DNA of 24,000 nt from NCBI GenBank assembly GCA_036305845.1, contig JAXKAR010000015.1, forward strand, positions 9,674 to 33,673. Reading direction: 5' to 3'. This document shows, piece after piece, positions 883 through 20,394 of the stretch (position 1 is its first letter; each line of letters begins with the position of its first letter). This DNA is from Emergencia sp. (GTDB taxonomy: Bacteria > Bacillota > Clostridia > Peptostreptococcales > Anaerovoracaceae). Under the pieces are notes generated by a model that saw only the letters and a program-made list of their open reading frames with translations, did not search any database and was not told the origin of the DNA. A program made the translations under genes and the position numbers.

Positions 883-959
883 TGGTGCGCCATGAGGGAC
901 TCGAACCCCCAACCTTCGCATTCGTAGTGCGCGACTCTATCCAATTGAGCTAATAGCGC
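883..959 (-). tRNA. tRNA-Arg (anticodon ACG), CCA encoded
   Basis: I folded the reverse complement by hand: GCGCTAT-TA-GCTC-AATTGGATA-GAGT-C-GCGCA-CTACGAA-TGCGA-AGGTT-GGGGG-TTCGAGT-CCCTC-ATGGCGC-A-CCA. The acceptor stem has 7 bp with one G-U pair. The T-loop is TTCGAGT, the anticodon loop is CT-ACG-AA, and the length is 77 nt. Confidence 0.9.
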
Positions 960-4091: not shown

Positions 4092-4096
4092 TTACG

Positions 4097-7621: not shown

Positions 7622-7640
7622 GAAAGGAGGATGAAGAGTA

Positions 7641-8495
7641 ATGAAAATGTTTGAAGTAACATACAAAAGAAGACTGAATGACAACATGGTATGGCTGAAA
7701 ATCTATGCGCCTCTGGTAGCAAGAAAAGCAAGACCGGGTCAGTTCATCATCCTTCGTACTGATGAATACGGTGAGAGAATCCCTCTCACCATGGCCGGCC
7801 ACAACGAAGAGGACGGCACAATTGACCTGATTTATGCAGCAGTAGGCAGAACGACCATGCTGATGGATCAGCTTGAAGTAGGTGACTGCCTGGCTGATGT
7901 TGTAGGACCACTGGGAAAACCGACTCATATGGACGGTTTGAAGAAGGTCTGCGTAGTGGGCGGCGGCACAGGAAATGCACTGGCTTACCCACTGGCAACC
8001 GGTATGCATGACCATGGTGTAGAAACTGTTATGATTGAAGGTTTCAAAACTAAAGATCTGGTAATTTTGGAAGATGAATTCCGTGCAGGTGTAGATAAGC
8101 TCTACGTCATGACCGATGACGGCTCCTATGGAGAAAAGGGTTTCACCACTGCTAAGCTGGAAGAATTAATTCAGGCTGGCGAGAAGTTTGACGAAGTCAT
8201 CGCTGTAGGACCACCGATGATGATGAAGTTCACTTGCCAGATTGCAGAAAAATATGGCATTCATTCTGTTGCGTCTCTCACTGCATATATGATTGACGGA
8301 ACCGGTATGTGCGGCGGATGTCGCTGCAATATCGGCGGTGAAGACAAGTTCGTATGTGTGGACGGACCTGAATTTGACGGCGCCCTGGTTGACTGGGATG
8401 AGCTGATTCAGAGAAGCGCATATTACTCTGATCAGGAAGCAGAAGACAGAGCGCATGTATGCCGCTTGACAGGAGGTGTTCGTTACCATGATTAA
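7641..8495 (+). CDS. nfnA: NfnA-like subunit (ferredoxin-NADP reductase / sulfide dehydrogenase beta-type; FAD plus [2Fe-2S])
   Basis: The motifs 'APLVARKARPGQFIILRTDEYGERIPLT' and C-terminal 'GTGMCGGCRCNIGGEDKFVCVDGPEF' are present. A ribosome-binding site GGAAAGGAGG lies at 7621-7630. Confidence 0.85.
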   Translation: MKMFEVTYKRRLNDNMVWLKIYAPLVARKARPGQFIILRTDEYGERIPLTMAGHNEEDGTIDLIYAAVGRTTMLMDQLEVGDCLADVVGPLGKPTHMDGLKKVCVVGGGTGNALAYPLATGMHDHGVETVMIEGFKTKDLVILEDEFRAGVDKLYVMTDDGSYGEKGFTTAKLEELIQAGEKFDEVIAVGPPMMMKFTCQIAEKYGIHSVASLTAYMIDGTGMCGGCRCNIGGEDKFVCVDGPEFDGALVDWDELIQRSAYYSDQEAEDRAHVCRLTGGVRYHD

Positions 8496-9885
8496 TTTAG
8501 TAAGAGAAAAGAATCCGATGCCTGAACAGGACCCTAACGTTCGTAACAAGAACTTCCTGGAAGTTTCTTCGGGCTATACGGAAGAAATGGCCATCAACGA
8601 GGCAATGAGATGCCTTAAGTGCCGCAAAAAGCCTTGTATGTCCGGTTGTCCGGTAATGGTTAAGATTCCTGATTTTATCGCAAAGATTGCGGAAGGTGAG
8701 TTTGAAGAGGCTTATCAGATTATCAGCGAAACCAGCAGCCTTCCTGCGATCTGCGGACGTGTCTGCCCGCAGGAAAACCAGTGTGAAGGCAAGTGCGTTC
8801 ACGGTGTAAAGGGTGAACCTGTTGCTATCGGTCGTCTGGAAAGATTTGCTGCTGACTGGCATGCTGCAAATTGTGGTGACGAGGAAATCAAACCGGCAGA
8901 AAGCAACGGACACAAAGTTGCTGTTATCGGCGCAGGTCCGGCAGGCCTTGCATGTGCAGGAGACCTGATCAATAAAGGTTACGAAGTAACGGTTTACGAA
9001 AGCTTACATAAGACCGGCGGCGTTCTGGTTTATGGTATTCCGCAGTTCCGTCTGCCAAAGGAAATCGTAGCAGCTGAGGTTGCAAAACTGGAAGCTAAGG
9101 GCGTTAAGTTTGTGACCAATGCTATCGTAGGCCGCGCAATTACAGTAGATGAGCTGATGAAAGAAGAAGGATTTGAATCCGTATTCATCGGTACTGGCGC
9201 AGGACTTCCATCTTTTATGAAGATTCCGGGCGAAAATCTGCTGGGCGTATGCTCTGCTAACGAATATCTGACGCGTATCAATTTGATGAAGGCTTATCTG
9301 CCTGAGTACGATACCCCGATTCAGAAGGTAAACAGAATTGCTGTAGTCGGCGGTGGAAATGTTGCAATGGACGCTGCAAGATGTGCAAAGCGTATGGGTG
9401 CAGAAGAAGTATATATCATCTATCGTCGTAGCATGGATGAACTGCCTGCAAGAGCAGAAGAAGTTCATCACGCTATCGAAGAAGGCATTATCTTCAAACT
9501 GCTGACCAACCCTGTAGAAATCAAGGGTGACGAAAAAGGTCATGTGACCGGTATCGAATGTGTCAGCATGGAATTGGGCGAACCTGATGCTTCCGGAAGA
9601 AGAAAACCGGTTGTTATCGAAGGCTCCAACCATGTAGTTCCTGTAGATATGGTTATCATGTCTATCGGAACCAAACTGAACACCCTGATTTTGGATACTA
9701 CTGAAAATCTGGAAGCAAACCAGAAGGGCGGTATCGGCGCTGATGAAACTGCAGCAACCAACCGTGACGGCATCTTCGCCGGCGGTGACGCTGTAACAGG
9801 TGCAGCTACAGTAATCAAGGCTATGGGCGCAGGTAAAACTGCGGCTGCAGGAATTGATGAATACCTGGGCGGCGAGTGCAAGTAG
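8488..9885 (+). CDS. nfnB: NfnB-like subunit (GltD-type NADPH-dependent oxidoreductase; 2x[4Fe-4S] plus FAD)
   Basis: The motifs 'CLKCRKKPCMSGCP', 'ICGRVCPQENQCEGKC' and the dinucleotide fold 'VAVIGAGPAGLACAG' are present. The track start GTG 8476 lies inside the ribosome-binding site AGGAGG (8471-8476). ATG 8488 is therefore preferred, and it overlaps the nfnA stop (ATGATTAA), implying translational coupling. Confidence 0.85.
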   Translation: MINLVREKNPMPEQDPNVRNKNFLEVSSGYTEEMAINEAMRCLKCRKKPCMSGCPVMVKIPDFIAKIAEGEFEEAYQIISETSSLPAICGRVCPQENQCEGKCVHGVKGEPVAIGRLERFAADWHAANCGDEEIKPAESNGHKVAVIGAGPAGLACAGDLINKGYEVTVYESLHKTGGVLVYGIPQFRLPKEIVAAEVAKLEAKGVKFVTNAIVGRAITVDELMKEEGFESVFIGTGAGLPSFMKIPGENLLGVCSANEYLTRINLMKAYLPEYDTPIQKVNRIAVVGGGNVAMDAARCAKRMGAEEVYIIYRRSMDELPARAEEVHHAIEEGIIFKLLTNPVEIKGDEKGHVTGIECVSMELGEPDASGRRKPVVIEGSNHVVPVDMVIMSIGTKLNTLILDTTENLEANQKGGIGADETAATNRDGIFAGGDAVTGAATVIKAMGAGKTAAAGIDEYLGGECK

Positions 9886-10324: not shown

Positions 10325-10993
10325 ATGAAGAAGATTTTAATTGCAGGCTGGGAGACAGCCATTGACAAATATGATGACGATATTGCAGCTTTTGCTAAGT
10401 TGGGATGTAAAGCTTTTCTTTCCCTGCATCCTGAGGATGCGGATGACGTGGATGGTATTGTATTTCCCGGCAGCATGCAGGGGGTAAACCCTAAGCTTTG
10501 GGGCGCAGAGAGCCAGGAAAACTGTGAGCTGAACGATGAGCTGGATAGACTCCAGGGGGTTTTTCTGGAAAAAGCCATAGAGAAACGGATTCCGGTTTTG
10601 GGTATTTGCAGAGGCATGCAGTACATCAATGTCCATCTGGGCGGTACGCTGAATCAGAAGATTCCAAGCTGGCAGATTCATCGGATTACAAAGCCGGAAA
10701 GCTACCACCAGATGCATCCGATGGAGGGAACTTTTATGGAGAGGCTTTTCGGAGAAGAAACGGAAATCAACACCCGCCATTACTGGGCGGTAGAAAACCT
10801 GGGTAAGGGACTTTATCTTACTGCCTTGTGGCATAATCCCGATAGCCGGGAAGAACAGGTTATAGAAGGGTATGCCCACAAGGATTATCCCATCATTGGC
10901 GTCCAGTGGCATCCGGAGAGAATGGTAGTGCATGGAGATCCGGTTCAGCAGGAGAATGGCAAAAAGATGCTGGAATACTGGCTTAGTTTATAA
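10325..10993 (+). CDS. Class-I glutamine amidotransferase-like / peptidase C26 (gamma-glutamyl hydrolase family) protein, paralog 1
   Basis: The nucleophile elbow '[13 protein letters not shown]' and the His motif 'IIGVQWHPE' are present. Confidence 0.85.
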   Translation: MKKILIAGWETAIDKYDDDIAAFAKLGCKAFLSLHPEDADDVDGIVFPGSMQGVNPKLWGAESQENCELNDELDRLQGVFLEKAIEKRIPVLGICRGMQYINVHLGGTLNQKIPSWQIHRITKPESYHQMHPMEGTFMERLFGEETEINTRHYWAVENLGKGLYLTALWHNPDSREEQVIEGYAHKDYPIIGVQWHPERMVVHGDPVQQENGKKMLEYWLSL

Positions 10994-11007
10994 GGAAGGT
11001 GATACCC

Positions 11008-11682
11008 ATGAAAAGAATGATGATCGGCGGTTTTGAAAATGCGGAGAACCGATGTGACAATTATATAGAGGCATTTGCCAAGCTGGGCTGTGAAGCGTTT
11101 GTTTCTTTATCTGTGGAAGATCTTTTACATGCTGACGGACTGATTCTGCCGGGCAGCAGTCAAGATATGAACCCAAAGCTTTGGGGCGCAGAAGATGAAT
11201 GTTCCAATGACATTAACGATGGGTTAGATGCGTCCCAGTGGGCGCTTTTGGATCTGGCGAAAGAAACGAGTAAACCGGTTTTGGGAATATGCCGGGGAAT
11301 GCAGTTTATTAACGTGTATTTTGGCGGTACGTTGATCCAAGATTTAGACTGTGCAGAGTATCATAAAGCCGGCACGCCTGAACGGTATCATCAGCTGGAA
11401 ACTACTGAAGGCGGTTTCATGGAAGAACTCTATGGAAAGACTTGCCTGGTGAATACTCGTCATCACCAGGGGGTGGGACGTCTGGGCGATGGTCTTTCTC
11501 CCGCGGCGTTGTGGATAGATAATCGTCAGCAGGGCGAATCGGTTGTCGAAGCATTTTCCCACAAACAGTATCCGTTTATCGGCGTCCAGTGGCATCCGGA
11601 GAGGATGTTTGTCTGCGAAGAAAGAGAGGTTTCAATGGATGGAGAAAAATTGCTTCGCCATTGGCTTGGAGGTATAAAATGA
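11008..11682 (+). CDS. Class-I glutamine amidotransferase-like / peptidase C26 protein, paralog 2
   Basis: It carries the same motifs ('[13 protein letters not shown]', 'FIGVQWHPE'). By eye it is roughly 40-45% identical to paralog 1 over the full length. I prefer ATG 11008, which has ribosome-binding site AAGGAAGG at 10992-10999, over the track's GTG 10999. Confidence 0.85.
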
Positions 11683-12185
11683 TTAGGATATACAGAGGAG
11701 ATATAACAAAACTTCCGGTGGATGCTATTGTCAATGCAGCGAATCACAGTTTGCTTGGCGGCGGCGGTGTAGATGGAGCAATTCATCGGGCGGCAGGACC
11801 GGAGCTTTTGGCAGCCTGCCGTTTGCTTCACGGTTGTGAGACAGGGGATGCGAAAACGACAGAAGGATATCGGCTTGGTGCTAAGTACGTCATTCATACT
11901 GTAGGACCGGTATGGCAAGGTGGAGACCGGGGCGAAAGAGAAGCCCTTTCCGGCTGTTACCGGCGATCTTTGGAGGAAGCAGAGAAATATGGATGCAAAA
12001 CCGTTGCTTTTCCGGCAATCAGCACCGGGGTTTACGGCTATCCTAAGGAAGAGGCAGCAAAGACCGCATTACAGGCAATTCGTGCATATTTTGCAGCACA
12101 TAACAAGAGCTGTATAGAAGAGGTATTGCTGGTGGCTTTTGATGCGGCCAACGAAGAACTTTATCGAAGCTTGCTGAAGGTATAG
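11679..12185 (+). CDS. Macrodomain protein (MacroD/YmdB-type O-acetyl-ADP-ribose deacetylase / ADP-ribosyl hydrolase)
   Basis: The motifs '[27 protein letters not shown]' and '[13 protein letters not shown]' are present. ATG 11679 overlaps the upstream stop (ATGA) and follows GGAGG at 11668-11672. The track's start at 11589 is an in-frame over-extension into the previous gene. Confidence 0.9.
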
Positions 12186-12322: not shown

Positions 12323-12375
12323 AATCACGTAATCAAGTGAACAATAAAAAGAAAATAAATAAAAGGAGAAGAAAG

Positions 12376-13263
12376 ATGAAAAAGTTAAAGAAAATTTTAG
12401 CCGTAGGTATGGCGCTGGTTCTTATGGGAACAATGTTTACCGCATGTGGTGGTGGAGATGATTCTGCAGAAGGCGGCAGCGCAGCAGGCGGAATCCATGT
12501 TGTAACCCGTGAAGAAGGTTCCGGAACAAGAGGCGCTTTTGTCGAACTGTTCGGTATTGAAGTAAAAGACGATGCCGGTGAAAAAGTTGACCAGACAATC
12601 GAAACTGCAGAAGTAACCAACAGTACTTCCGTTATGATGCAGACTATCGCAGGCAATGAATCCGCAATCGGATATATTTCTCTGGGCTCCCTGGACGATA
12701 CAGTAAAAGCGCTCAAGGTTGACGGCGTTGAAGCTACTGCTGAAAATGTAAAGAGCGGCGACTACAAAGTTTCCAGACCGTTCAATATCGTAACTAAAGC
12801 AGATGTAAGTGAAACGGCTAAAGATTTTGTTTCCTATATCATGAGTGATGAAGGACAGGCTATTGTTGAAGAAGAAGGCTATATCAGTGAAGGCAGTGAA
12901 GGTGCATACGAAGGCGCAGGCGTTTCCGGCGAAATTACAATCAGCGGATCTTCCTCTGTAACACCGGTAATGCAGAAACTGGCAGAAGAATATATGGCAC
13001 TGAACAAAGATGTACAGATCAATGTACAGCAGTCCGATTCCACGACAGGCGTAACTGACGCAATCGAAGGCATCAGCGACATCGGTATGGCTTCCAGAGA
13101 AGTCAGCGAAGAAGAACTGGCACAGGGCGTTGAGGCACAGGCAATCGCACTTGACGGAATCGCAGTTATTGTAAACAACAACAGCACCCTTTCTGAAATC
13201 GCTTCCGAGTCCGTACTGGGTATCTATACCGGAACAATCACTGACTGGGCAGATGTGAAATAA
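12376..13263 (+). CDS. pstS: Phosphate ABC transporter substrate-binding lipoprotein PstS (circularly permuted variant)
   Basis: Ribosome-binding site AAAGGAG (12362-12368) precedes ATG 12376. The signal peptide has a lipobox Cys (MFTAC, TGT at 12445). The phosphate-binding motifs 'REEGSGTR' and 'ISGSSSVTP' are both present, but in reversed order relative to canonical PstS. Confidence 0.9.
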   Translation: MKKLKKILAVGMALVLMGTMFTACGGGDDSAEGGSAAGGIHVVTREEGSGTRGAFVELFGIEVKDDAGEKVDQTIETAEVTNSTSVMMQTIAGNESAIGYISLGSLDDTVKALKVDGVEATAENVKSGDYKVSRPFNIVTKADVSETAKDFVSYIMSDEGQAIVEEEGYISEGSEGAYEGAGVSGEITISGSSSVTPVMQKLAEEYMALNKDVQINVQQSDSTTGVTDAIEGISDIGMASREVSEEELAQGVEAQAIALDGIAVIVNNNSTLSEIASESVLGIYTGTITDWADVK

Positions 13264-13274
13264 GAAGAAAATCC

Positions 13275-14138
13275 ATGAATAGAAATTTTAAGGAAAAAGC
13301 AATGCAGCTGGTATTTTTACTGGCTGCATGTGCGTCGATTATCGCAGTAATTTTAATATGTGTATTCATGTTCGGAAACGGCATACCGACCATGAGTAAA
13401 ATTGGTTTTTGGAATTTCCTCTCTGGAACAGAGTGGAAACCGATGCAGGATATCTACGGCATACTGCCAATGATAGTAGGCAGTATTTATGTGACGGTAG
13501 GCGCGATTATTATCGGTGTGCCTATTGGTTTGCTTTGCGCTACTTATATGGCGAGATTCTGTACGCCAAGGCTTCACAGTATGATGAAACCGGCTGTAGA
13601 TCTGCTGGCGGGAATTCCGTCTATTGTTTACGGATTCTTTGGCCTTGTGGTTATTGTGCCACTGATGCAGGATATTTTCCCGGGAACAAGCGGAAAGGGC
13701 ATTCTGACGGCTTCCATCATGCTTGGGATTATGATTCTGCCGACAATTATCAGTGTGTCAGAAGCGTCTATCCGCGCCGTTCCCGAGCATTACTATGAAG
13801 GTGCGCTGGCTCTCGGCGCCACCCATGAACGCAGTGTGTTTTTTACCGTTTTACCGGCCGCAAAATCAGGCATTATGGCTGCAGTGATTCTAGGCGTTGG
13901 CCGTGCAATCGGAGAAACCCTTGCCGTATCGGTTATTGTCGGAAACAGTGCTGTTATGCCGGAAAGCATTCTCAGTATGGCCAGAACCATGACGACCAAT
14001 ATCGTTATGGAGATGGGTTATGCTCAGGGATTCCACAGAGACGCACTGATTGCGACAGCCGTAGTTCTGTTCGTGTTTATTCTGATTATCAATCTGCTCT
14101 TTAATCTGATTAACAACAGGAGGGCAAAGGAATGTTAA
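13275..14138 (+). CDS. pstC: Phosphate ABC transporter permease PstC
   Basis: It is a multi-TM protein with the EAA-type loop 'ALGATHERSVFFTVLPAAKSGI'. It occupies the first permease position in a pst operon. Confidence 0.9.
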   Translation: MNRNFKEKAMQLVFLLAACASIIAVILICVFMFGNGIPTMSKIGFWNFLSGTEWKPMQDIYGILPMIVGSIYVTVGAIIIGVPIGLLCATYMARFCTPRLHSMMKPAVDLLAGIPSIVYGFFGLVVIVPLMQDIFPGTSGKGILTASIMLGIMILPTIISVSEASIRAVPEHYYEGALALGATHERSVFFTVLPAAKSGIMAAVILGVGRAIGETLAVSVIVGNSAVMPESILSMARTMTTNIVMEMGYAQGFHRDALIATAVVLFVFILIINLLFNLINNRRAKEC

Positions 14139-14965
14139 AAAAGTATAAAGGTCAGCCGTTATCCCTCTTTCTCAGAATTCTTGTCAACTTGGCAGCGCTG
14201 ATTACGGTAGCGGTTCTGGTTTCTGTAGTGGGCTATATTCTGATTAAAGGCATTCCGAATCTGAAACCGGAGCTGTTTGCCTGGACGTTTACCACGGATA
14301 ATCAGTCCATGATGCCGGCAATTATCAATACACTGACGATTACGGCAGTAGCGCTTCTGATTGCAGTGCCGTTCGGTATTGGATCGGCAATCTATCTGGT
14401 GGAATATGCAAAAAGGGGAAACAAGCTGGTAAATGTTATTCGCCTGACGACGGAGACGCTATCGGGTATTCCTTCCATCGTGTATGGTTTGTTTGGCTAT
14501 CTGATGTTTGTCGTGGCTCTGGAATGGAGTTATTCTCTGTTGGCAGGAACATTGACGCTTGCGATTATGATTTTGCCGCTGATTATGCGAACCACAGAAG
14601 AAGCGCTGAAATCTGTGCCGGATACTTTCCGAGAAGGAAGCTTCGGCCTTGGTGCAGGAAAGCTGCGGACCGTATTTCGTATCGTTCTGCCTTCAGCCGT
14701 TCCCGGTATCCTGTCCGGTATCATTCTGGGAATAGGCAGAATTGTTGGCGAAACGGCAGCTTTAATATATACAGCAGGTACAGTTACAGGTGTTGCAAAC
14801 GGTCTCTTCTCCTCAGGACGAACCCTGTCAGTGCACATGTACGCACTCCTCTCCGAAGGGCTCTATACTGAACAGGCCTATGCAACGGCTGTAATACTGC
14901 TGATTGTGGTCATTGTCATCAATGCTATTTCCAGCATGATTGCAAAAAAGGTGACGAAGAAATAA
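14132..14965 (+). CDS. pstA: Phosphate ABC transporter permease PstA
   Basis: The loop 'GLGAGKLRTVFRIVLPSAVPGI' is present. It overlaps pstC by 7 nt, and AGGAGGG lies upstream. Confidence 0.9.
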   Translation: MLKKYKGQPLSLFLRILVNLAALITVAVLVSVVGYILIKGIPNLKPELFAWTFTTDNQSMMPAIINTLTITAVALLIAVPFGIGSAIYLVEYAKRGNKLVNVIRLTTETLSGIPSIVYGLFGYLMFVVALEWSYSLLAGTLTLAIMILPLIMRTTEEALKSVPDTFREGSFGLGAGKLRTVFRIVLPSAVPGILSGIILGIGRIVGETAALIYTAGTVTGVANGLFSSGRTLSVHMYALLSEGLYTEQAYATAVILLIVVIVINAISSMIAKKVTKK

Positions 14966-14977
14966 AGGGAGTTTTAC

Positions 14978-15727
14978 ATGGATAAATTTACGATAAAAGA
15001 TTTGAATTTATATTACGGTGATTTTCATGGATTGAAAGATATCAATCTGAACTTGCCGTCTAACGAGGTTACCGCCTTTATCGGCCCTTCCGGCTGTGGA
15101 AAATCCACTTTGCTGAAGACGCTGAACAGAATGAATGATCTGGTAGAAGGCTGCCGTATTGTAGGCGATGTACGACTGGATGGAGAAGACATCTATGGGG
15201 ATATGGACGTAAATAACTTGAGAAAACGGGTGGGCATGGTTTTTCAGAAACCAAATCCGTTTCCTATGAGCGTTTATGATAATATCGCCTATGGTCCCAG
15301 AACCCATGGCATTAGAAGTAAAGCGGAGCTGGATGAAATCGTTGAGACTTCGCTGAGAAATGCAGCAATCTGGGATGAACTGAAAGACAGACTGAAAAAA
15401 AGCGCTCTTGGCCTTTCCGGCGGGCAGCAACAGAGGCTTTGCATTGCCAGGGCTTTAGCGGTAAATCCGGAAGTGCTGCTGATGGACGAGCCAACCAGTG
15501 CGCTCGACCCAATCTCTACATCTAAAATCGAAGACTTGGCGCTGGAGTTAAAGGAAAAGTATACCATTATTATGGTTACCCACAATATGCAGCAGGCGCT
15601 TCGCGTATCAGATAATACCGCATTTTTCCTGTTAGGAGAAGTGATAGAATACGATAAGACAGAGAAACTCTTCTCTGTACCGTCCAACAAAAAGACGGAG
15701 GATTATATTACCGGGAGGTTTGGTTAA
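14978..15727 (+). CDS. pstB: Phosphate ABC transporter ATP-binding protein PstB
   Basis: Walker A 'GPSGCGKST', signature 'LSGGQQQR' and Walker B '[11 protein letters not shown]' are all present. Confidence 0.95.
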
Positions 15728-16389
15728 TGAGAAACAAATTCGACGAACAGCTTGCACTGCTTAATGTGGAGCTGATTAAGATGGGAAGTCTTTGTGAACT
15801 TGCGATTTCCAACGCAATTAAAGGGCTTCTGGATGATAATGACGAGCTGCTCCATCTGGCGGCAGAGACAGATAGTGAAATCGATGAGAAGGAAAGAGAA
15901 ATCGAGAATATGTGTTTCAAACTGCTCCTGCAGCAGCAGCCGGTAGCAAGAGACCTGCGAACGATTTCTGCAGCATTGAAGATGATTTCTGACATGGAGC
16001 GAATCGGTGATCAGGCTTCTGATATTGCAGAAATTGCAGAATTTATCGAAGGGGAGCAGTCCAAGGAACACACACATCTGAAAGCGATGGCTGAGGCGGC
16101 GTCAAAGATGGTGACAGAATCCATTAAGTCCTTTGTAGATAAGGATCTGCAGCTTGCCAATAAAGTTATGGGGGATGATGATGTAGTGGATCATCATTTT
16201 GAGCAAATGAAAGAAGACATCATTGGTTTGATTCGTCAGGGAGAAGCCAGCGCAGAGCTTTCTCTGGATCTGCTCATGATCGCCAAGTATTTGGAACGAA
16301 TCGGTGATCACGCTGTAAACGTGGCTGAGTGGGTAGAATTCTCTATTACCGGTCAGCATATGAGTGAAGAGATGAGAACCAGAATATAA
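15727..16389 (+). CDS. phoU: Phosphate signalling regulator PhoU
   Basis: It has the two-repeat PhoU architecture with 'MERIGDQASDIAE' and 'LERIGDHAVNVAE'. Its start overlaps the pstB stop (TAATG). Confidence 0.93.
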   Translation: MRNKFDEQLALLNVELIKMGSLCELAISNAIKGLLDDNDELLHLAAETDSEIDEKEREIENMCFKLLLQQQPVARDLRTISAALKMISDMERIGDQASDIAEIAEFIEGEQSKEHTHLKAMAEAASKMVTESIKSFVDKDLQLANKVMGDDDVVDHHFEQMKEDIIGLIRQGEASAELSLDLLMIAKYLERIGDHAVNVAEWVEFSITGQHMSEEMRTRI

Positions 16390-16494: not shown

Positions 16495-18000
16495 TTACGC
16501 AGCAGCTTTTTCTTCCTTGGTCTTCAGTCTTACCTTTGGTTCCTTTGGCAGTCCGAACAGAGGAATGAATCTGTCTGCGCCGGTGAAGGTCAGAAGCAGC
16601 ATGGAAGCAACTGCAATCATAGCCATGAAGTTGTACTTGATGAAGTCTGTGTTTGCGAAGTCGAACAGCGGATATACGTTGGCTGCGATACCTACATAGA
16701 AACCCAGATATACGTGCCATGGAATCAGCTGGGAACCGAATACGCCCATTGCATCTCCGAAAGTTGCGTTTCTCAGCTTAATCTTGTACATGTCTTCTTC
16801 TGTTTCAGCTACGATGTTTTCTTCTGCGATACCCTTGATGATTGGGCCAACAGTTACGATCTGTGCCATTTCGTCAGACAGAATGGCATTACCGGCAAGG
16901 CAGAGAACGCCGTTGCAGGTCATCAGCTGTCTTACGTTTCTGGAAATCTTGACGATCAGGTTTGCCAGCGGGTCAAAGGCCTTCATTGCGCCCATGATGC
17001 CGCCGAATGCAGCAACCCACATCATCATAACGACTACCCAGGATCCTGCGTCAGCAAAACCTGCCATACACATATCCAGGTATTCCTGCAGTCCGCCGGC
17101 TGCGAAGGAAGTTGTTCCTGCAAACAGTCCCAGGATATAAGCGGAAACGATACCGCTGCCGATGCAGGCAAAGGTGTTTACGCCAAGAACTGCTAAAACG
17201 ATAACCAGAATCAGCGGAATAATCATGTAAACAGCAACGCCGTGCTGTACCTGGTTCAGCAGATCGATAGCTTCCGGTCTTTCGCCTGCCAGATAGTCCA
17301 GCGCACTTTGCGGTACGGAATCCATAACGTTGGTTGCAACAACGGATTCACCAGGCAGATCCATAAGGATACCTGCAACGAAGAATGCAATTGCAGCCAG
17401 AATCAGACAGAGAACGGACCAAACGCCCTGACTTCTAATTCTGTCAACAACTTCTACGCCCTGAATACCGGAGGATACGATGGTGGTATCGGAAATCAGA
17501 CCGATATTGTCACCGAAGCATGCGCCGCCGGCGATTGCGCAGGTAGTCAGAAGCAGGCTTCCGGTTTCGATACAGTTCGGGTCAACGATATGTACTAACC
17601 ACAGGAAAATCGGTGCGCATGCAGCGAAGGTTCCCCAGGAAGTACCGGTTGCTACGGACAGAACAGCAGTTACACACAGACCGATAACGGCTGTAGTCTT
17701 TGCTGTTACGCCCAGAGACAGTGCGATGTTTACAACGGAAGCGCCTACGCCAGTAGACATGAATGCGCTTGCCATTGCATAGGCAAACATCAGGATGAAC
17801 AAGGCCACGATAATGTTGCTTACGCTGCTAATGGATGCATCAATACATTCTTTAAATGTAAGCTTTTCGGTAATTTTTGCTACCACTACGGCTACACAGG
17901 CAGCGATAGGCGCAGCAAGCAGTGCGTCTTGTCCGGTCATCATCAAGCCTGCCAGTACGATGATTGGCACGAACTTGAATGCGGCTTTTAGAAAATTCAT
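16495..18000 (-). CDS. NhaC-family (Na+/H+ antiporter-type) membrane transporter; substrate unknown
   Basis: 501-aa polytopic membrane protein whose composition and length fit the NhaC family (for example 'ATGTSWGTFAACAPIF' and 'GACFGDNIGLISDTTIVSS'). A strong ribosome-binding site AAAGGAGAAAG is read on the minus strand at 18004-18014. Confidence 0.75.
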   Translation of the reverse strand: MNFLKAAFKFVPIIVLAGLMMTGQDALLAAPIAACVAVVVAKITEKLTFKECIDASISSVSNIIVALFILMFAYAMASAFMSTGVGASVVNIALSLGVTAKTTAVIGLCVTAVLSVATGTSWGTFAACAPIFLWLVHIVDPNCIETGSLLLTTCAIAGGACFGDNIGLISDTTIVSSGIQGVEVVDRIRSQGVWSVLCLILAAIAFFVAGILMDLPGESVVATNVMDSVPQSALDYLAGERPEAIDLLNQVQHGVAVYMIIPLILVIVLAVLGVNTFACIGSGIVSAYILGLFAGTTSFAAGGLQEYLDMCMAGFADAGSWVVVMMMWVAAFGGIMGAMKAFDPLANLIVKISRNVRQLMTCNGVLCLAGNAILSDEMAQIVTVGPIIKGIAEENIVAETEEDMYKIKLRNATFGDAMGVFGSQLIPWHVYLGFYVGIAANVYPLFDFANTDFIKYNFMAMIAVASMLLLTFTGADRFIPLFGLPKEPKVRLKTKEEKAAA

Positions 18001-18062
18001 TTTTCTTTCTCCTTTACTTAATTGATGATAATTGCTTGGAAATAAAATCCGTAACTATATAA

Positions 18063-18078
18063 AGCAAGCACCGTGCCA
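18063..18078 (-). promoter_or_regulatory. Sigma-54 (-24/-12) promoter of the NhaC-family gene
   Basis: The minus strand reads TGGCAC-GGTGC-TTGCT, an exact match to TGGCAC-N5-TTGCW. It lies 62 nt upstream of the ATG at 18000. Confidence 0.85.
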
Positions 18079-18203
18079 ACTTTGAAAAAAATTTAACAAA
18101 CAAGATAAATAGCGGTAGATGAGCGAAAAATGGGGAATCCGGACAGTGTGAATGAAAGTTGGGATTGAGAAACTCGACATAGATGAACCGAATTTGGTAA
18201 AAG

Positions 18204-18245
18204 ATTGTCAAACTTGTCCCGAAAATGGGTCAAAACTATTGACAT
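18204..18245. promoter_or_regulatory. Candidate enhancer (UAS) for the sigma-54 activator
   Basis: The imperfect palindrome TTGTCCC-N6-GGGTCAA (18214-18233) is nested within TTGTCAA (18205-18211) and TTGACAT (18239-18245). GTCAAAC-type half-sites are repeated. The region lies about 130-170 bp upstream of the sigma-54 promoter. Confidence 0.4.
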
Positions 18246-18267
18246 TTACGCGCTGTAGGAATAGGAT
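18239..18267 (+). promoter_or_regulatory. Candidate sigma-A promoter of the regulator (and the downstream giant gene)
   Basis: TTGACA (18239-18244), a 17-nt spacer, then TAGGAT (18262-18267). A ribosome-binding site AGGAG at 18302-18306 precedes ATG 18313. Confidence 0.45.
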
Positions 18268-18312
18268 GAAAATAAGATGGATTTTAGATGGTTAAGTGAT
18301 TAGGAGAAACCA

Positions 18313-20394
18313 ATGAAGAAATATTATGGTCTGGATAGAGTGCTGGAGCCTAAGGGCATGGTGCCTGCAACAGCATGGAAACTGGATAATGGCAAGAACC
18401 TGGGACCAAAAGAAGTCAGAATTTGTTTGGAGCGCATTCACCTTGAATGGGGGAACTTCCAACAGATTTGTTCCAGCTGTGGTTTTGACGAGGCAAAGAT
18501 GCGGGTTAAAATTATGGATATCATCGAAAAACGGGGAAAACTGCATAATCCGTTTACTGGTTCGGGCGGAGTTCTCATCGGAACAATTGATGAAATACCT
18601 GAGGCGAGCAGAGAAGGGCATGAGCTAAAGGAAGGCGATCGGATTTACTGTATCACTTCACTGAGCTGTATCCCTATATATATAGAAGACATTTTTGAAA
18701 TTGATTTTAACTACGGGCAGATTGTCTGTTCTGGTTATGCGATTCTCTTTGAAGCTTCTCCGGTGTATAGGATGGAAAAAGGGATGCAGCACAACTATAC
18801 TCTGGCAGCCATCGACGAGGCGGGAAGCCTTTTCGGCGCTTACAACATTGCGGTAGAGCATAAGAATCAGAATATTATTGTCATCGGGCGAAAAACTTAT
18901 ACGGTGGCCATGTATGCAGAAGCAGTGAGAGAGGCTACAGGCGCTTCCACCGAGGTGATTGCCATTATGGACAAACATGCTAAAGAAATTCTGACCCAGG
19001 AAGAAATTGAGAAAGCGCTGTCTCCACTGGTGAAAGCGACTTACTTTGTGGATTTAACTGATCCGGTCAATGCGTTCCATGGACTTCTTGCGCAGAATTC
19101 CAAATTGACTATGGCAGATCAGGTTATCGTGGCAGAAAATATTTTTGGTTCAGAGACCCTGGCCGTTATGCTGGTCAAATCCTTTGGTGACCTATATTTT
19201 ACGGCGGTGGAAAATCACTATTCAGAAGCACAGCTGGTGGCCGAATCTATGGGGAAAATTGTGACGATGTATGCTTTCGACCAGTACGTGAAAGACTATC
19301 CTGAGTTTACTATTCGGATCGTCAAAAGTATCAAACCGATACTGGATACGATCAATCATCTGTATATAGAACGAGAAAAGCAGTGGAGGAGAAACGAAAA
19401 TCGGGAAAAGAGTATGATCATAGAAAATGCCGGTAAACTGGATAATTTTGTTTATCAGAGTCAGGTAACCCGAAGTATGGTGGATGAGGTATTGAATATT
19501 GCCAAGTATGACTGTAATGTAATCATACAGGGAGAAACCGGCGTAGGGAAAGAGCGTGTGCTGTCCTTGATTCATCAGAACAGTGAACGATGTGGAAACC
19601 CTTGTATCAAAATAAACTGCGCAACTATTGCAGAAAGTTTGGCCGAATCTGAGTTTTTCGGATATGAAGCAGGCGCATTTACCGGTGCGCAGACAGCCGG
19701 AAAACCGGGATATTTTGAAATGGCCAATAAGGGAATTCTGTTTTTGGATGAAATCGGTACGCTCTCTATGAATATGCAGTCGAAGCTTTTACGGGTGCTG
19801 CAGGAAAATCAGTTCTATCGAGTTGGTGGAACCCATCAGGTATCCGTCAACGTGCGAGTTATCGTAGCGAACAATATTCCACTGAAGGAGCTTGTTGATG
19901 CAGGCAAATTCAGAGAAGACCTTTACTACAGATTGAATATCTGCAAAATTGATGTGCCGCCGCTGCGTGAGAGAAGAGCGGATATCCTTTGCCTGGCTAC
20001 TACTTTTGCGGCAAACTGGGCTAAAAAATACAACATCAGCAAGGAACTGTCTCAGGAAGCATTGGATAGTCTATATGATTATTATTGGCCGGGGAATGTG
20101 CGAGAACTGGAGAATGTGATTCACAGGCTGGTCATCAGCAGTAAGGATGTGGTTATTGGGAAAGAGGATGTGGATGAAATTCTGGGAGAAAATGACTACG
20201 ATAACAAGCTGCTCAATATGAAGAAGCATTTCGACCGTAATGAAAATCTGGATTTCCATCAGCTTATGGATCAGCAAGAAAAACTGATTATCGAATATGC
20301 ACTGAAACAGGAAGGGACTACCAGAAAGGCAGCGGATTTGTTAGGGCTGCCACAGACGACTTTTGCCAGAAAGAAGTTAAAGTACGGGTTATAA
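18313..20394 (+). CDS. Sigma-54-dependent enhancer-binding protein with an N-terminal MDR-dehydrogenase-like (3,5-diaminohexanoate dehydrogenase-like) sensor domain
   Basis: The AAA+ core shows Walker A GETGVGKE (19531-19554), GAFTGA (19672-19689), Walker B 'ILFLDEIG' and 'WPGNVRELEN'. A C-terminal Fis-type HTH 'TTRKAADLLGLPQTTFARKKLKY' is present. The N-terminal ~370 aa ('DRVLEPKGMVPATAWKLDN', 'RGKLHNPFTGSGGVLIGTIDEI', 'LKEGDRIYCITSL') resemble Kdd/MDR enzymes from memory. Confidence 0.92.
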   Translation: MKKYYGLDRVLEPKGMVPATAWKLDNGKNLGPKEVRICLERIHLEWGNFQQICSSCGFDEAKMRVKIMDIIEKRGKLHNPFTGSGGVLIGTIDEIPEASREGHELKEGDRIYCITSLSCIPIYIEDIFEIDFNYGQIVCSGYAILFEASPVYRMEKGMQHNYTLAAIDEAGSLFGAYNIAVEHKNQNIIVIGRKTYTVAMYAEAVREATGASTEVIAIMDKHAKEILTQEEIEKALSPLVKATYFVDLTDPVNAFHGLLAQNSKLTMADQVIVAENIFGSETLAVMLVKSFGDLYFTAVENHYSEAQLVAESMGKIVTMYAFDQYVKDYPEFTIRIVKSIKPILDTINHLYIEREKQWRRNENREKSMIIENAGKLDNFVYQSQVTRSMVDEVLNIAKYDCNVIIQGETGVGKERVLSLIHQNSERCGNPCIKINCATIAESLAESEFFGYEAGAFTGAQTAGKPGYFEMANKGILFLDEIGTLSMNMQSKLLRVLQENQFYRVGGTHQVSVNVRVIVANNIPLKELVDAGKFREDLYYRLNICKIDVPPLRERRADILCLATTFAANWAKKYNISKELSQEALDSLYDYYWPGNVRELENVIHRLVISSKDVVIGKEDVDEILGENDYDNKLLNMKKHFDRNENLDFHQLMDQQEKLIIEYALKQEGTTRKAADLLGLPQTTFARKKLKYGL

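What the first reader, a model, noticed from the sequence alone, without database searches (positions are those of the whole stretch)
18313..19446. Sigma-54 activator whose sensor is a dehydrogenase-like (Kdd/MDR-like) domain, probably a pseudoenzyme
Instead of the usual PAS, GAF, V4R, REC or PRD sensors, the first ~370 aa of this enhancer-binding protein (EBP) look like a complete medium-chain dehydrogenase fold. From memory, the motifs 'RVLEPKG..P..AWKLDN', 'RGK..NP.TGSGG..IGT...I' and a GroES-like 'EGDRIY' segment are the N-terminal signature of L-erythro-3,5-diaminohexanoate dehydrogenase (Kdd) of the lysine fermentation pathway. A Rossmann GxxGxxG would be expected where the sequence reads 'IIVIGRKTYTVAMY' (about 18865-18900), so the glycine-rich loop appears degenerate. 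That would be consistent with an enzyme fold recruited as a ligand sensor, perhaps for a diamino or beta-amino acid, rather than as a catalyst.
Basis: partly seen in the sequence, partly recalled or inferred. Interest (0 to 1): 0.7.

Follow-up and report, generated by a model that had tools for sequence, protein, structure and literature searches.

The report
Sigma-54 activator with dehydrogenase-derived sensor
This gene encodes a sigma-54 transcription activator whose signal-sensing part is a disabled copy of a lysine-fermentation enzyme (3,5-diaminohexanoate dehydrogenase); it belongs to a widespread, undescribed regulator family that switches on the lysine-to-butyrate fermentation operon in some gut anaerobes and, in this Emergencia-like bacterium, a neighbouring transporter gene.

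Summary
ORF 18313-20394 (+, 693 aa) is one protein: a Kdd-like domain (res 1-~355), a long linker helix, a sigma-54 AAA+ module with GAFTGA, and an HTH. The N-terminal part matches the NCBIfam Kdd model (E 2e-43, below its cut-off), aligns end to end with solved 3,5-diaminohexanoate dehydrogenase (E 2.5e-24), and its AF2 model (pLDDT 90.5) hits that enzyme first (Foldseek E 1e-27). Only the first glycine of the dinucleotide loop survives (GRKTYTV). No such loop occurs in 0/31 sensors of this clade, against 58/60 free enzymes. It is not an artefact: the identical protein is on 9 contigs, and 79 species genomes (Anaerovoracaceae) carry the same fusion.

New here:
- A perfect sigma-54 promoter (18063-18078, minus strand) drives the divergent NhaC-family transporter. 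Promoter, target and a UAS-like motif are conserved in 22 or more orthologous loci.
- A sister clade lies directly upstream of kdd-kamA-kamDE-CoA-transferase (kdd 48/52, kamA 38/43, kamD 17/17).
- Basal fusions keep the glycine loop and sit beside kdd-kce.

The family therefore looks like an enzyme-to-sensor exaptation that regulates lysine fermentation. The ligand, probably a lysine-pathway diamino acid, is inferred, not shown. I found no published description. Verdict: new variant of a known kind, interest about 0.6.

The parts
18313..20394 (+). Gene for the 693-aa enhancer-binding protein (Kdd-like sensor + AAA+ + HTH)
   Evidence: ORF list. Pfam and NCBIfam domains. The identical protein occurs on 9 independent contigs and as NCBI MEE0741063.1 / MFQ9894297.1, Emergencia sp..
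18313..19377 (+). Kdd-like (3,5-diaminohexanoate-dehydrogenase-like, MDR fold) sensor domain, res 1-355
   Evidence: NCBIfam Kdd E 2e-43. PDB 7DL3 E 2.5e-24 over res 5-353. AF2 pLDDT 90.5. Foldseek top hits are 7DL0/1/3/7. Precomputed Pfam PF26370 KDD_N.
18532..18570 (+). RGKLHNPFTGSGG motif (res 74-86), shared with the enzymes; candidate ligand-site element
   Evidence: R-G-K-x-x-N-P-x-T-x-G-G is invariant or nearly invariant in enzymes and in all fused sensors. It is 93-100% conserved among 27 orthologues.
18874..18915 (+). Degenerate dinucleotide-binding loop IIVIGRKTYTVAMY (res 188-201); only the first Gly of GxxGxxG is kept
   Evidence: Alignment to 7DL3 'VVIIGANGKSG'. Column counts. Positions 194-198 drift freely among orthologues.
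19201..19287 (+). Replaced enzyme motifs: TAVENHYS (enzyme FSMATSF) and AFDQY (enzyme GNGY), flanking the retained Glu311 (VAESMG)
   Evidence: The role of enzyme Glu310 is taken from PMC9902596.
19333..19428 (+). Long linker helix (res 341-366) plus low-confidence hinge (res 361-372) between sensor and AAA+ domain
   Evidence: AF2 models. It is the least conserved segment among orthologues (35% vs 60-84%).
19453..20193 (+). Sigma-54 interaction AAA+ domain and lid: Walker A GETGVGKE 19531-19554, GAFTGA 19672-19689, Walker B 19738-19758
   Evidence: Pfam Sigma54_activat 211 bits and AAA_lid_14 72 bits. Motif positions.
20257..20391 (+). C-terminal helix-turn-helix DNA-binding domain (res 649-693)
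   Evidence: HTH_50 scores 24.2 bits, just under the cut-off of 27. The region aligns to the end of the PrdR, NorR and AtoC models. The model shows three helices at 648-690. 84% conserved among orthologues.
18063..18078 (-). Sigma-54 (-24/-12) promoter TGGCACGGTGCTTGCT, 62 nt upstream of the transporter start codon
   Evidence: It is the only exact match in the window, with 0.14 expected. A promoter in the same place and orientation is found in 22 or more orthologous loci.
18215..18232 (-). Candidate upstream activator site A, TGACCCATTTTCGGGACA (-154 from the -24 element)
   Evidence: TTGACCCATTTTYGG is present 89-167 nt upstream of the promoter in all 22 orthologous intergenic regions (27 sites vs 0.5 in shuffles). 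The half-site is shared with the lysine-operon clade.
18184..18201 (+). Candidate upstream activator site B, TGAACCGAATTTGGTAAA, an inverted weaker copy of site A
   Evidence: Read from the sequence. Half-sites TGAMCC/GGKTCA number 39 observed vs 3.3 expected in orthologous upstream regions.
18239..18267 (+). Sigma-70-like promoter of the activator gene (TTGACA-17-TAGGAT); its -35 box lies in the palindrome GTCAA-N5-TTGAC (18229-18243), which overlaps site A
   Evidence: Consensus scan, 10/12 matches. This is a consensus match only; the idea of autoregulation is inference.
16495..18000 (-). Predicted target gene: 501-aa NhaC/ArcD-like (Na_H_antiporter family) transporter
   Evidence: Pfam PF03553 64 bits. 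Weak hits to NhaC and ArcD equivalogs. Orthologues 75-87% identical lie divergent to the activator in 24 loci.

Best explanation
The gene encodes a one-component sigma-54 enhancer-binding protein. Its sensor is a pseudoenzyme derived from L-erythro-3,5-diaminohexanoate dehydrogenase (Kdd), the third enzyme of lysine fermentation.

Shown here:
- The domain keeps the whole Kdd/MDR fold and the residues shared by all Kdds in the N-terminal lobe and cleft (R9, E34, R74-G-K-x-x-N-P-x-T-x-G-G86, S116, E281, E311).
- It has lost the glycine-rich NAD(P) loop and the enzyme-specific FSMATSF and GNGY motifs.
- An intact AAA+/GAFTGA module and an HTH follow.
- A canonical -24/-12 promoter faces the divergent NhaC-type transporter gene, and conserved UAS-like half-sites lie 110-155 nt upstream of it.

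Inferred:
- The protein binds these sites through its HTH.
- Without ligand, the probably dimeric sensor and the long linker helix hold the AAA+ domain inactive, as in XylR/DmpR and NtrC1/DctD-type negative control.
- A lysine-pathway-type amino compound binds in the former substrate cleft. My best guess is 3,5-diaminohexanoate, beta-lysine or lysine itself.
- Binding releases the AAA+ domain to form a hexamer, hydrolyse ATP and open the sigma-54 promoter. The transporter for that compound or its precursor is then made.

The family as a whole is the activator of the lysine fermentation operon. This window holds a paralogue that has been re-targeted to a transporter.
For: Architecture and fold.

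Pseudoenzyme status:
- A glycine-rich loop is found in 0/31 sensors of this clade vs 58/60 enzymes.
- Table of enzyme-invariant positions that are lost or kept.
- Among 27 orthologues the loop positions drift while the shared positions are 93-100% conserved.
- The NCBIfam Kdd score is below the cut-off.

The fusion is real: identical protein on 9 contigs, and all 79 GTDB loci carry fusions of about 690 aa.

Target:
- One exact sigma-54 promoter in the window, 0.14 expected, in the divergent intergenic region.
- The same arrangement with an NhaC-type gene occurs in 22 or more orthologous loci.
- Conserved UAS-like motif.

Link to lysine fermentation:
- Subclade B activators lie between two sigma-54 promoters. 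One drives kdd-(kdd)-kamA-orf339-MutS_V-like-kamD-kamE-CoA transferase, with kdd in 48/52, kamA in 38/43 and kamD in 17/17 loci. The other drives a divergent thioesterase-like gene in 54/66 loci.
- Basal fusions sit next to kdd, an amino-acid permease, BKACE (kce) and 4HBT.
- An NJ tree places the intact-loop fusions between the enzymes and the degenerate-loop sensors.
- Pathway steps are as in PMC3149608.
Against: No ligand binding, DNA binding or transcription was tested; every step after 'a promoter and an activator lie side by side' is inference.

The window's paralogue is never next to lysine-fermentation genes. Its only conserved target is a distant NhaC/ArcD-like transporter of unknown substrate, so its ligand may have diverged.

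Glu311 is retained; the equivalent enzyme residue contacts the nicotinamide amide. An Asp at the end of beta2 is also retained. Some nucleotide binding therefore remains possible.

The substrate-binding residues of Kdd could not be taken from the primary structure paper, which is not held. 'Retained substrate site' thus rests on conservation, not on a mapped pocket.

The tree is a simple midpoint-rooted NJ tree.
Confidence: 0.6

Rival explanations
1. The architecture and target are the same, but the ligand of this paralogue is not a lysine-pathway compound. After duplication within Anaerovoracaceae the cleft was re-tuned to another amine or amino acid (for example arginine/ornithine, putrescine, 4-aminobutyrate or 5-aminovalerate), matching whatever the NhaC/ArcD-like transporter carries.
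For: - Anaerovoracaceae genomes carry two or more paralogues, each facing a different transporter: NhaC-type, EamA with B3_4 and PNPOx-like genes, or AzlCD.
- The motif after RGKLHNPFT differs between the paralogue groups (GSGG, NTAGQ, DSGGM).
- The transporter gives weak hits to the arginine/ornithine antiporter ArcD.
- nhaC-type genes are predicted arginine/ornithine transporters in the OrdR regulon (PMC6615313).
- No lysine genes lie within 10 kb in the orthologous loci.
Against: - The query group keeps the enzyme-type T-G-S/T-G-G motif and all positions shared with Kdd.
- One lysine-operon contig (L140) also carries a sigma-54 promoter followed by a distant NhaC-family gene.
- There is no positive evidence for any specific alternative ligand.
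Confidence: 0.25
2. The domain still binds NAD(P)(H), in a non-canonical way. It reports redox or cofactor state, or even retains dehydrogenase activity, which would make this a bifunctional enzyme-regulator.
For: - Glu311 (the equivalent of Glu310, which H-bonds the NADPH amide) and an Asp at the end of beta2 are conserved.
- The Rossmann-type beta-alpha-beta topology is predicted with high confidence.
- Basal fusions keep GAGGKLG or GAGGRSG.
Against: - Two of the three loop glycines are replaced by bulky residues (T195, V198), and R193, K194 and Y196 sit in the pyrophosphate turn.
- These positions vary freely among orthologues.
- The enzyme-invariant FSMATSF and GNGY motifs are gone.
- The score is below the Kdd equivalog cut-off.
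Confidence: 0.1
3. The Kdd-like domain binds no small molecule. It acts as an oligomerisation or partner-binding module, for example pairing with a genuine Kdd subunit or with the transporter, so the signal is a protein state.
For: MDR-type enzymes are oligomers and the 3,5-DAHDH crystals hold several chains per entry. The sister clades are encoded beside real kdd genes.
Against: The window's group has no kdd nearby. Residues strictly conserved between enzymes and sensors cluster in the RGKxxNPxTxGG motif and around the E311 region rather than looking like a surface patch, although no interface was mapped.
Confidence: 0.04
4. The fusion is an assembly or frameshift artefact that joins a kdd gene to a regulator gene.
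For: Some database entries are split or truncated: P0002 plus a 360-aa ORF in L009, and P0033 plus a 161-aa ORF in Cohnella.
Against: The identical 693-aa ORF occurs in 9 contigs from different samples. Continuous ORFs of about 690 aa occur in 77 of 79 species genomes. The exhaustive search found 21 full-length cluster representatives.
Confidence: 0.01

Closest known systems
L-erythro-3,5-diaminohexanoate dehydrogenase (Kdd, 3,5-DAHDH; PDB 7DL0/7DL1/7DL3/7DL7)
   Same: Same fold over the whole length (res 5-353 vs 8-352; Foldseek E 1e-27, TM up to 0.83). Shared N-terminal motifs (G-x-x-R-V-x-E-P, AWKLDN, RGKLHNPxTGSGG, GDxI) and the Glu310 equivalent.
   Different: About 23% identity. No glycine-rich NAD(P) loop, and FSMATSF and GNGY are replaced. 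Scores 148 bits against the NCBIfam cut-off of 200. It is fused to AAA+ and HTH domains instead of being a free protein of about 350 aa.
Clostridial amino-acid-catabolism sigma-54 activators (PrdR, OrdR, LeuR and others; Nie et al. 2019, PMC6615313)
   Same: Same AAA+ and HTH output module (the best NCBIfam match of res 348-690 is PrdR, 328 bits). One-component logic, a TTGGCAY-N5-TTGCT promoter next to the activator gene, and amino-acid or transporter targets, including nhaC-type genes in the OrdR regulon.
   Different: Those activators carry PAS, GAF, ACT, CBS, V4R, PrpR_N, Fe-S or REC sensors. A Kdd/MDR-type sensor is not in that catalogue. The score is below the PrdR equivalog cut-off (328 vs 795 bits), and only the C-terminal half matches.
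KamR of Bacillus thuringiensis (sigma-54 activator of the kamA lysine-2,3-aminomutase operon; PMC4428206)
   Same: A sigma-54 activator encoded beside lysine-aminomutase genes, which it controls, like subclade B of this family.
   Different: KamR is reported to have a PAS sensor, not a Kdd-like domain. It is a different regulator solving a related task.
Enzyme-fold sensor domains in other regulators (for example MocR/GabR aminotransferase-fold regulators; own knowledge, not tested here)
   Same: The principle is the same: a catalytic fold of the regulated metabolism is recruited as the effector-binding domain of a transcription factor.
   Different: Different fold (MDR/Rossmann vs PLP fold type I). 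Different output (AAA+ sigma-54 activator vs GntR-type HTH). Here the ancestral enzyme is still encoded in the regulated operon of the sister clades.
XylR/DmpR and NtrC1/DctD-type negative control of AAA+ activators (own knowledge)
   Same: An N-terminal regulatory domain is joined to the AAA+ domain by a helical linker. The proposed mechanism is relief of repression on signal input.
   Different: This is an analogy only. Neither the oligomeric state nor the direction of control (negative or positive) was tested for this protein.

Membership tests
Bacterial enhancer-binding protein (sigma-54-dependent AAA+ activator) | Sigma-54 interaction AAA+ domain above the curated threshold | tested here: met
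   Pfam PF00158 211 bits (cut-off 20.2) and AAA_lid_14 71.8 bits (cut-off 27).
Bacterial enhancer-binding protein (sigma-54-dependent AAA+ activator) | GAFTGA sigma-54 contact loop and Walker A/B motifs | tested here: met
   GAFTGA at res 454-459, GETGVGKE at 407-414, LFLDEIG at 476-482, GNVREL at 594-599.
Bacterial enhancer-binding protein (sigma-54-dependent AAA+ activator) | C-terminal DNA-binding HTH | tested here: inconclusive
   HTH_50 scores 24.2 bits (cut-off 27) and HTH_8 15.6 bits (cut-off 22). However, the region aligns to the C-terminal ends of the PrdR, AtoC and NorR models and is modelled as three helices.
Bacterial enhancer-binding protein (sigma-54-dependent AAA+ activator) | A -24/-12 promoter with upstream activator sites near the gene | tested here: met
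   TGGCACGGTGCTTGCT at 18063-18078 (-). Conserved in 22 or more orthologous loci with a conserved upstream motif.
Bacterial enhancer-binding protein (sigma-54-dependent AAA+ activator) | ATP-dependent activation of sigma-54 RNA polymerase; rpoN present in the genome | not testable with these tools
   Needs biochemistry, genetics and the full genome.
L-erythro-3,5-diaminohexanoate dehydrogenase (Kdd, EC 1.4.1.11) | Score at or above the NCBIfam equivalog cut-off (NF052381, 200 bits) | tested here: not met
   148.2 bits (full protein) or 149.5 bits (domain alone).
L-erythro-3,5-diaminohexanoate dehydrogenase (Kdd, EC 1.4.1.11) | Overall fold of the solved enzyme | tested here: met
   Foldseek E 1e-27, TM 0.67-0.83 to 7DL0/1/3/7. 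Sequence alignment covers res 5-353.
L-erythro-3,5-diaminohexanoate dehydrogenase (Kdd, EC 1.4.1.11) | Glycine-rich NAD(P)-binding loop, G-x-(x)-G-x-x-G | tested here: not met
   The loop reads GRKTYTV. Such a loop is present in 58/60 free enzymes and 0/31 sensors of this clade.
L-erythro-3,5-diaminohexanoate dehydrogenase (Kdd, EC 1.4.1.11) | Enzyme-invariant motifs FSMATSF (296-302) and GNGY (321-324) in 7DL3 numbering | tested here: not met
   Replaced by TAVENHY and FDQY. F296, M298, T300, F302 and G321 are lost, G323 is lost in this protein (Gln324), and only Y324 is kept.
L-erythro-3,5-diaminohexanoate dehydrogenase (Kdd, EC 1.4.1.11) | Oxidative deamination of 3,5-diaminohexanoate | not testable with these tools
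   Needs an enzyme assay.
Pfam PF26370 (KDD_N) | Hit to the family model | tested here: met
   Precomputed hit listed for this exact protein and for all relatives. The model is absent from the local Pfam copy, so it was not rescored.
Medium-chain dehydrogenase/reductase (MDR) superfamily | GroES-like lobe plus Rossmann lobe fold | tested here: met
   After the Kdd chains, Foldseek lists alcohol dehydrogenases, enoyl reductases and quinone oxidoreductases at E about 1e-10, TM 0.45-0.54.
Medium-chain dehydrogenase/reductase (MDR) superfamily | Sequence match to ADH_zinc_N / ADH_N Pfam models | tested here: not met
   No Pfam hit in res 1-378. Free Kdd enzymes do carry ADH_zinc_N hits.
PrdR (proline reductase activator, NF041552) | Equivalog cut-off and full-length match | tested here: not met
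   327.8 bits vs cut-off 795. Only res 348-690 match model positions 238-575.

The most novel reading that the evidence does not exclude
The Kdd-like domain is a specific receptor for a lysine-fermentation intermediate (3,5-diaminohexanoate or beta-lysine). It evolved from the pathway's own dehydrogenase, and the stages are all still extant: free enzyme, then fused copy with an intact NAD(P) loop beside kdd-kce, then loop-less pseudoenzyme controlling the whole kam-kdd operon, then paralogues re-targeted to transporters. On this reading the family is the missing transcriptional switch of the gut lysine-to-butyrate pathway and a natural series showing how an enzyme becomes a sensor.
Probability: 0.4. 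Interest if true: 0.75.

Novelty: new variant of a known kind. Interest (0 to 1): 0.6.

Why it matters
Lysine fermentation (kamA, kamDE, kdd, kce) is one of the four bacterial routes to butyrate and is used by gut and oral anaerobes. In the literature I could search I found no description of its transcriptional control in Clostridia. This finding supplies a concrete candidate regulator family, its promoters and its binding-site half-sites, which makes that control directly testable.

It also adds a new sensor class (an MDR/Kdd fold) to the catalogue of sigma-54 activators. In addition, it offers an unusually clean case of a pathway enzyme turning into the pathway's sensor, with intermediate forms that keep the cofactor loop.

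In practical terms, some of these fusions are annotated as 'L-erythro-3,5-diaminohexanoate dehydrogenase' (for example in Cohnella kolymensis). That annotation would inflate counts of kdd in butyrate-pathway surveys.

The sensor could also serve as a starting point for biosensors of beta- or diamino acids.

Tried and rejected
- The local Pfam copy gave no hit for res 1-378. The relevant model, PF26370, appears only in precomputed annotations.
- The primary structure paper on 3,5-DAHDH (Angew. Chem. 2021) is not held, so substrate-contact residues could not be mapped. Only the role of Glu310 came from a review.
It was repeated with closer sets.
- The afdb50 fold library was unavailable.
- A riboswitch or other RNA element upstream of the transporter: none found; the only Rfam hit is a tRNA at 886-959.
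- An intrinsic terminator between the activator and the next gene: none found.
- An exact inverted repeat in 18001-18312: only a chance-like 8-mer. The UAS emerged only from cross-species comparison.
- Co-operonic enzymes that could reveal the transporter's substrate: none in the orthologous loci.
- A BKACE (kce-like) gene 8-10 kb downstream in some orthologous loci lies in a conserved housekeeping-like block without a sigma-54 promoter, so it was not counted as part of the regulon.
- KamR of B. thuringiensis was considered as the same regulator and rejected, because it has a PAS sensor.
- Literature searches for a Kdd-like EBP sensor or a lysine-fermentation sigma-54 regulator found nothing relevant.
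Full report
**1. What is in the sequence**

The finding sits in one ORF, 18313-20394 on the + strand (693 aa). It has an AGGAG ribosome-binding site 8 nt upstream of the ATG.

- The C-terminal half is an unambiguous sigma-54 enhancer-binding protein. Pfam gives Sigma54_activat at res 381-546 (211 bits) and AAA_lid_14 at 552-627 (72 bits). HTH_50 at 649-693 scores 24 bits, just below its cut-off.
- The functional motifs are present: Walker A GETGVGKE (407-414), GAFTGA (454-459), Walker B LFLDEIG (476-482) and GNVREL (594-599).
- The best NCBIfam match of res 348-690 is PrdR, at 328 bits, far below its equivalog cut-off.
The string IIVIGRKTYTVAMY is res 188-201, nt 18874-18915.

**2. Is the N-terminal region really Kdd-like?**

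Yes, by three independent routes.

- NCBIfam NF052381 (Lys_ferment_KDD) matches res 6-172 with E 2e-43 and 148 bits. The curated cut-off is 200 bits, so NCBI would not name this protein Kdd.
- phmmer against all PDB sequences finds only 3,5-diaminohexanoate dehydrogenase of Candidatus Cloacamonas (7DL0/1/3/7). The E-value is 2.5e-24, aligned over res 5-353 against chain residues 8-352, which is essentially the whole enzyme.
- An AF2 model of res 1-370 is confident (pLDDT 90.5, pTM 0.89). Foldseek against the PDB ranks the seven 3,5-DAHDH chains first (E about 1e-27, TM 0.67-0.83). MDR alcohol dehydrogenases, enoyl reductases and quinone oxidoreductases follow at about 1e-10.

The local Pfam copy has no model for the region. 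The precomputed annotations of the protein collection list PF26370 'KDD_N' for this exact protein.

**3. Pseudoenzyme or enzyme?**

I aligned 60 free Kdd-type proteins of about 350 aa, the 7DL3 sequence and 38 fused or fused-type sequences.

- 58 of 60 free enzymes carry a G-x-(x)-G-x-x-G loop. None of the 31 sensors in the clade that contains this protein does.
- In this protein the enzyme's G199-A-N-G202-K-S-G205 reads G192-R-K-T-Y-T-V198.
- Further positions that are at least 85% conserved in the enzymes are lost in the sensors. These are Q22, D49 (to E), S93 (to T), F296, M298, T300 and F302 (the FSMATSF motif, now TAVENHY), and G321 and G323 (GNGY, now FDQY).
- Kept in both enzymes and sensors are G9, R12, P21, A24, E38, the R83-G-K-x-x-N-P-x-T-x-G-G95 motif, G99, G117, S125, P130, G150, D268, E280, G291, F295, E310 and Y324.
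- Among 27 orthologues of this protein the kept positions are 93-100% conserved, whereas the former loop positions 194-198 vary freely (K/N/T, T/A/V, Y/C/F, V/T/S).

That is the signature of a domain still under selection for something other than canonical dinucleotide binding.

Two observations cut the other way, and I flag them. Glu311 corresponds to Glu310, which a review reports to hydrogen-bond the NADPH amide (PMC9902596). An Asp is also retained at the end of beta2. Non-canonical nucleotide binding is therefore not excluded.

**4. Not an artefact, and not rare**

- The identical 693-aa protein is encoded on 9 contigs from different samples with the same neighbours. It is in NCBI as MEE0741063.1 / MFQ9894297.1, 'sigma-54 dependent transcriptional regulator [Emergencia sp.]'.
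- An exhaustive HMMER search of 1.84 billion cluster representatives with res 1-370 gave 693 hits at E<=1e-3. Among the best 150 were 21 full-length fusions of 679-717 aa.
- A scan of one genome per GTDB species returned 79 loci. Each encodes a Kdd-like domain on the + strand, and 77 of these ORFs are continuous fusions of about 690 aa with a GAFTGA motif.
- Almost all of these loci come from Anaerovoracaceae: Emergencia timonensis (68% identity, same synteny), Senimuribacter, Ihubacter, Aminipila, Anaerovorax, Eubacterium nodatum, Aminicella lysinilytica, Clostridium aminobutyricum and Acidaminobacter. Several genomes carry two or more paralogues.

**5. What this copy regulates**

- The 312-nt gap between the activator and the divergent gene 16495-18000 (-) holds the only exact sigma-54 promoter match of the window. 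It is TGGCACGGTGCTTGCT at 18063-18078 on the minus strand, 62 nt before the start codon, with 0.14 matches expected by chance.
- The downstream gene encodes a 501-aa Na_H_antiporter-family protein. It is only distantly related to NhaC (50 bits vs cut-off 370) and to the arginine/ornithine antiporter ArcD (34 bits vs 650).
- In 22 or more orthologous loci the arrangement is the same: a TGGCAY-N5-TTGCT promoter 26-90 nt upstream of a transporter 75-87% identical to this one, divergent from the activator.
- The otherwise divergent intergenic regions share TTGACCCATTTTYGG 89-167 nt upstream of the -24 element, with 27 sites against 0.5 in shuffles. This test is circular, because the matrix came from the same sites, but the cross-species conservation is real.
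- In the window this motif is TGACCCATTTTCGGGACA at 18215-18232 (-). A weaker inverted copy, TGAACCGAATTTGGTAAA, lies at 18184-18201 (+).
- Site A overlaps a palindrome GTCAA-N5-TTGAC and the -35 box of a sigma-70-like promoter for the activator gene (18239-18267). This could allow autoregulation, but that is inference only.
- No riboswitch or terminator was found.
- The 1589-aa gene that starts 15 nt after the activator is absent from the 55%-identical orthologous locus L009, so it is not a conserved part of the system.

**6. What the family does elsewhere**

This is the key to interpretation.

*Subclade B.* The sister clade (motif RRGKLHNPVTDTGG, also loop-less) was recovered in 80 metagenome loci, of which 76 carry the full activator. 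Among loci with enough flanking sequence:
- kdd follows within 2.5 kb in 48 of 52 loci;
- kamA follows in 38 of 43;
- kamD follows in 17 of 17;
- a thioesterase-like (4HBT) gene lies divergent in 54 of 66.

Sigma-54 promoters face both ways. The operon reads kdd-(kdd)-kamA-orf339-MutS_V-like-kamD-kamE-CoA transferase. This is the lysine fermentation pathway described in PMC3149608. Upstream of these promoters a palindrome TGAACC-N5-6-GGTTCA occurs in 47 of 91 regions (0.16 expected). It shares its half-site with the window's UAS.

*Basal fusions.* Members that keep an intact or nearly intact glycine loop sit beside lysine-pathway genes. Cohnella P0033 has GAGGKLG and P0093 has GAGGRSG; P0068 and P0083 belong to the same group.
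- P0033 and P0068 sit beside a real kdd, an amino-acid permease, BKACE (kce) and a 4HBT thioesterase, without kamA or kamDE.
- The short contig of P0093 shows only the adjacent kdd.
- P0083 sits beside BKACE and a DctP transporter gene.

A midpoint-rooted NJ tree places these between the enzyme clade and the loop-less sensors. The tree is rough.

*Other paralogues.* Other Anaerovoracaceae paralogues face an EamA transporter with B3_4 and PNPOx-like genes, or AzlCD, or a small 83-aa ORF. A deep member precedes CoA transferase, thiolase, two class-III aminotransferases and a 4-hydroxybutyryl-CoA-dehydratase-like gene.

**7. Most likely mechanism**

*Shown:* the modular architecture, the promoter, the conserved upstream sites, the conserved target and the family's association with lysine fermentation.

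*Inferred:*
- The HTH binds the two sites at about -111 and -154.
- The sensor, probably dimeric like MDR enzymes, and the long helix 341-366 keep the AAA+ module off. That helix is followed by a low-confidence hinge.
- An amino compound binds in the former substrate/nicotinamide cleft and releases the AAA+ module. The module then forms a hexamer, hydrolyses ATP and opens the sigma-54 promoter, and the transporter is produced.

For subclade B and the basal group the obvious ligand is the Kdd substrate 3,5-diaminohexanoate, or beta-lysine or lysine. In the basal operons kdd is the first enzyme, so its substrate is the natural inducer.

For this paralogue I commit to a lysine-pathway-type diamino acid, but at only about 40-45%. 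A re-tuned ligand such as another basic amino acid or amine is the main rival, at about 25%. My component confidences are: real Kdd-derived sensor on an EBP 0.95; catalytically dead 0.8; activates the NhaC-type gene 0.8.

**8. Comparison with what is known**

- As an EBP, this protein meets the family's sequence-level criteria. As a Kdd enzyme it fails three of them: the curated score, the cofactor loop and the enzyme-specific motifs. I therefore file it as Kdd-like in fold, not as a Kdd.
- The published survey of 490 clostridial EBPs lists PAS, GAF, HPr, PrpR_N, ACT, CBS, Fe-S, hydrogenase-like, V4R and REC sensors. It lists no dehydrogenase-type sensor and no lysine-fermentation regulon (PMC6615313).
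- B. thuringiensis KamR controls kamA through sigma-54 but has a PAS sensor (PMC4428206).
- A 2025 survey notes lysine 2,3-aminomutase among the sigma-54-regulated genes enriched in the class Bacilli, without describing the activator (PMC12316311).
- I found no paper on a Kdd-like EBP sensor.
- Databases already contain the fusion, with a Pfam domain call and generic names. At least one member is misnamed as the enzyme (P0033).

**9. Verdict**

The thing itself is a new variant of a known kind: a sigma-54 activator with a previously undescribed, enzyme-derived sensor class. The added value is the family-level picture. This is the likely master activator of lysine fermentation, with an extant enzyme-to-sensor series, and this window holds a transporter-directed paralogue from an Emergencia species. 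Interest is about 0.6. It is a solid, testable and moderately surprising finding, limited by the lack of any ligand evidence.

Noticed in passing
window 20410 to beyond 24000 (+); full length in L001 11584-16353 and L012 12086-16855: A giant ORF of 1589 aa starts 15 nt after the activator's stop codon, with no terminator between. Its only family hit is a cytidylyltransferase-like (NadD-like) domain at res 893-1054; an HD-like 'HDIGK' motif lies near the N-terminus and the rest is unannotated. It is followed by an Ldh_1_N-like gene (330 aa) and an FMN_red gene (349 aa). It is present in E. timonensis but absent from the 55%-identical orthologous locus L009.
   Followed up: partly
L044 9304-9555 (-), Clostridium aminobutyricum; L081/L082, E. 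timonensis and relative: In one paralogue group the divergent sigma-54 promoter is followed by an 83-aa ORF with no Pfam hit, or by an untranslated stretch of about 1 kb before AzlC/AzlD exporter genes. The real target of that promoter is unclear.
   Followed up: partly
L045-L089 (for example L059 7518-9752): Another paralogue group (motif RGKLHNPFTNTAGQ) faces a sigma-54-driven operon of an EamA transporter, a B3/4-domain protein and a pyridoxamine-phosphate-oxidase-like protein. This combination has no obvious known pathway.
   Followed up: partly
L008 (Cohnella kolymensis JXAL01000003.1), L171-L174: Fusions that keep an intact GxxGxxG loop sit beside lysine-pathway genes without kamA or kamDE: kdd, an amino-acid permease, kce (BKACE) and a thioesterase in L008 and L172/L173, kdd alone on the short contig L171, and BKACE with DctP in L174. 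This suggests direct use of imported 3,5-diaminohexanoate or beta-lysine. The Cohnella protein is annotated as the dehydrogenase itself and is split by a frameshift (535 + 161 aa).
   Followed up: partly
L176 8001-18109 (GCA_023396175.1): A deep-branching family member precedes CoA transferase A/B, thiolase, two class-III aminotransferases, an HpaB-like (4-hydroxybutyryl-CoA-dehydratase-like) gene and an acetyl-CoA hydrolase/transferase. This is reminiscent of the aminotransferase variant of lysine fermentation or of aminobutyrate fermentation.
   Followed up: no
L081 3025-7647 (E. timonensis): A separate sigma-54 promoter drives 3-hydroxyacyl-CoA dehydrogenase, an SDR, a GntP permease and CoA transferase A/B (75% identical to the lysine-operon transferase). 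It lies 7 kb from the second Kdd-EBP paralogue.
   Followed up: no
L140 2531-4019: In one lysine-operon contig, a sigma-54 promoter is followed by a distant NhaC-family transporter (hmmsearch E 6e-29 to the window's transporter group). It lies 6 kb from the subclade-B activator.
   Followed up: no
window 886-959 (-); 2829-9885; 10325-12185; 12337-16389: The rest of the window is ordinary: a tRNA; a ferredoxin-like protein; an 1177-aa pyruvate:ferredoxin oxidoreductase; a DHODB_Fe-S / Pyr_redox_2 oxidoreductase pair; two tandem Peptidase_C26/GATase genes; a Macro-domain protein; and pstS-C-A-B-phoU.
   Followed up: partly
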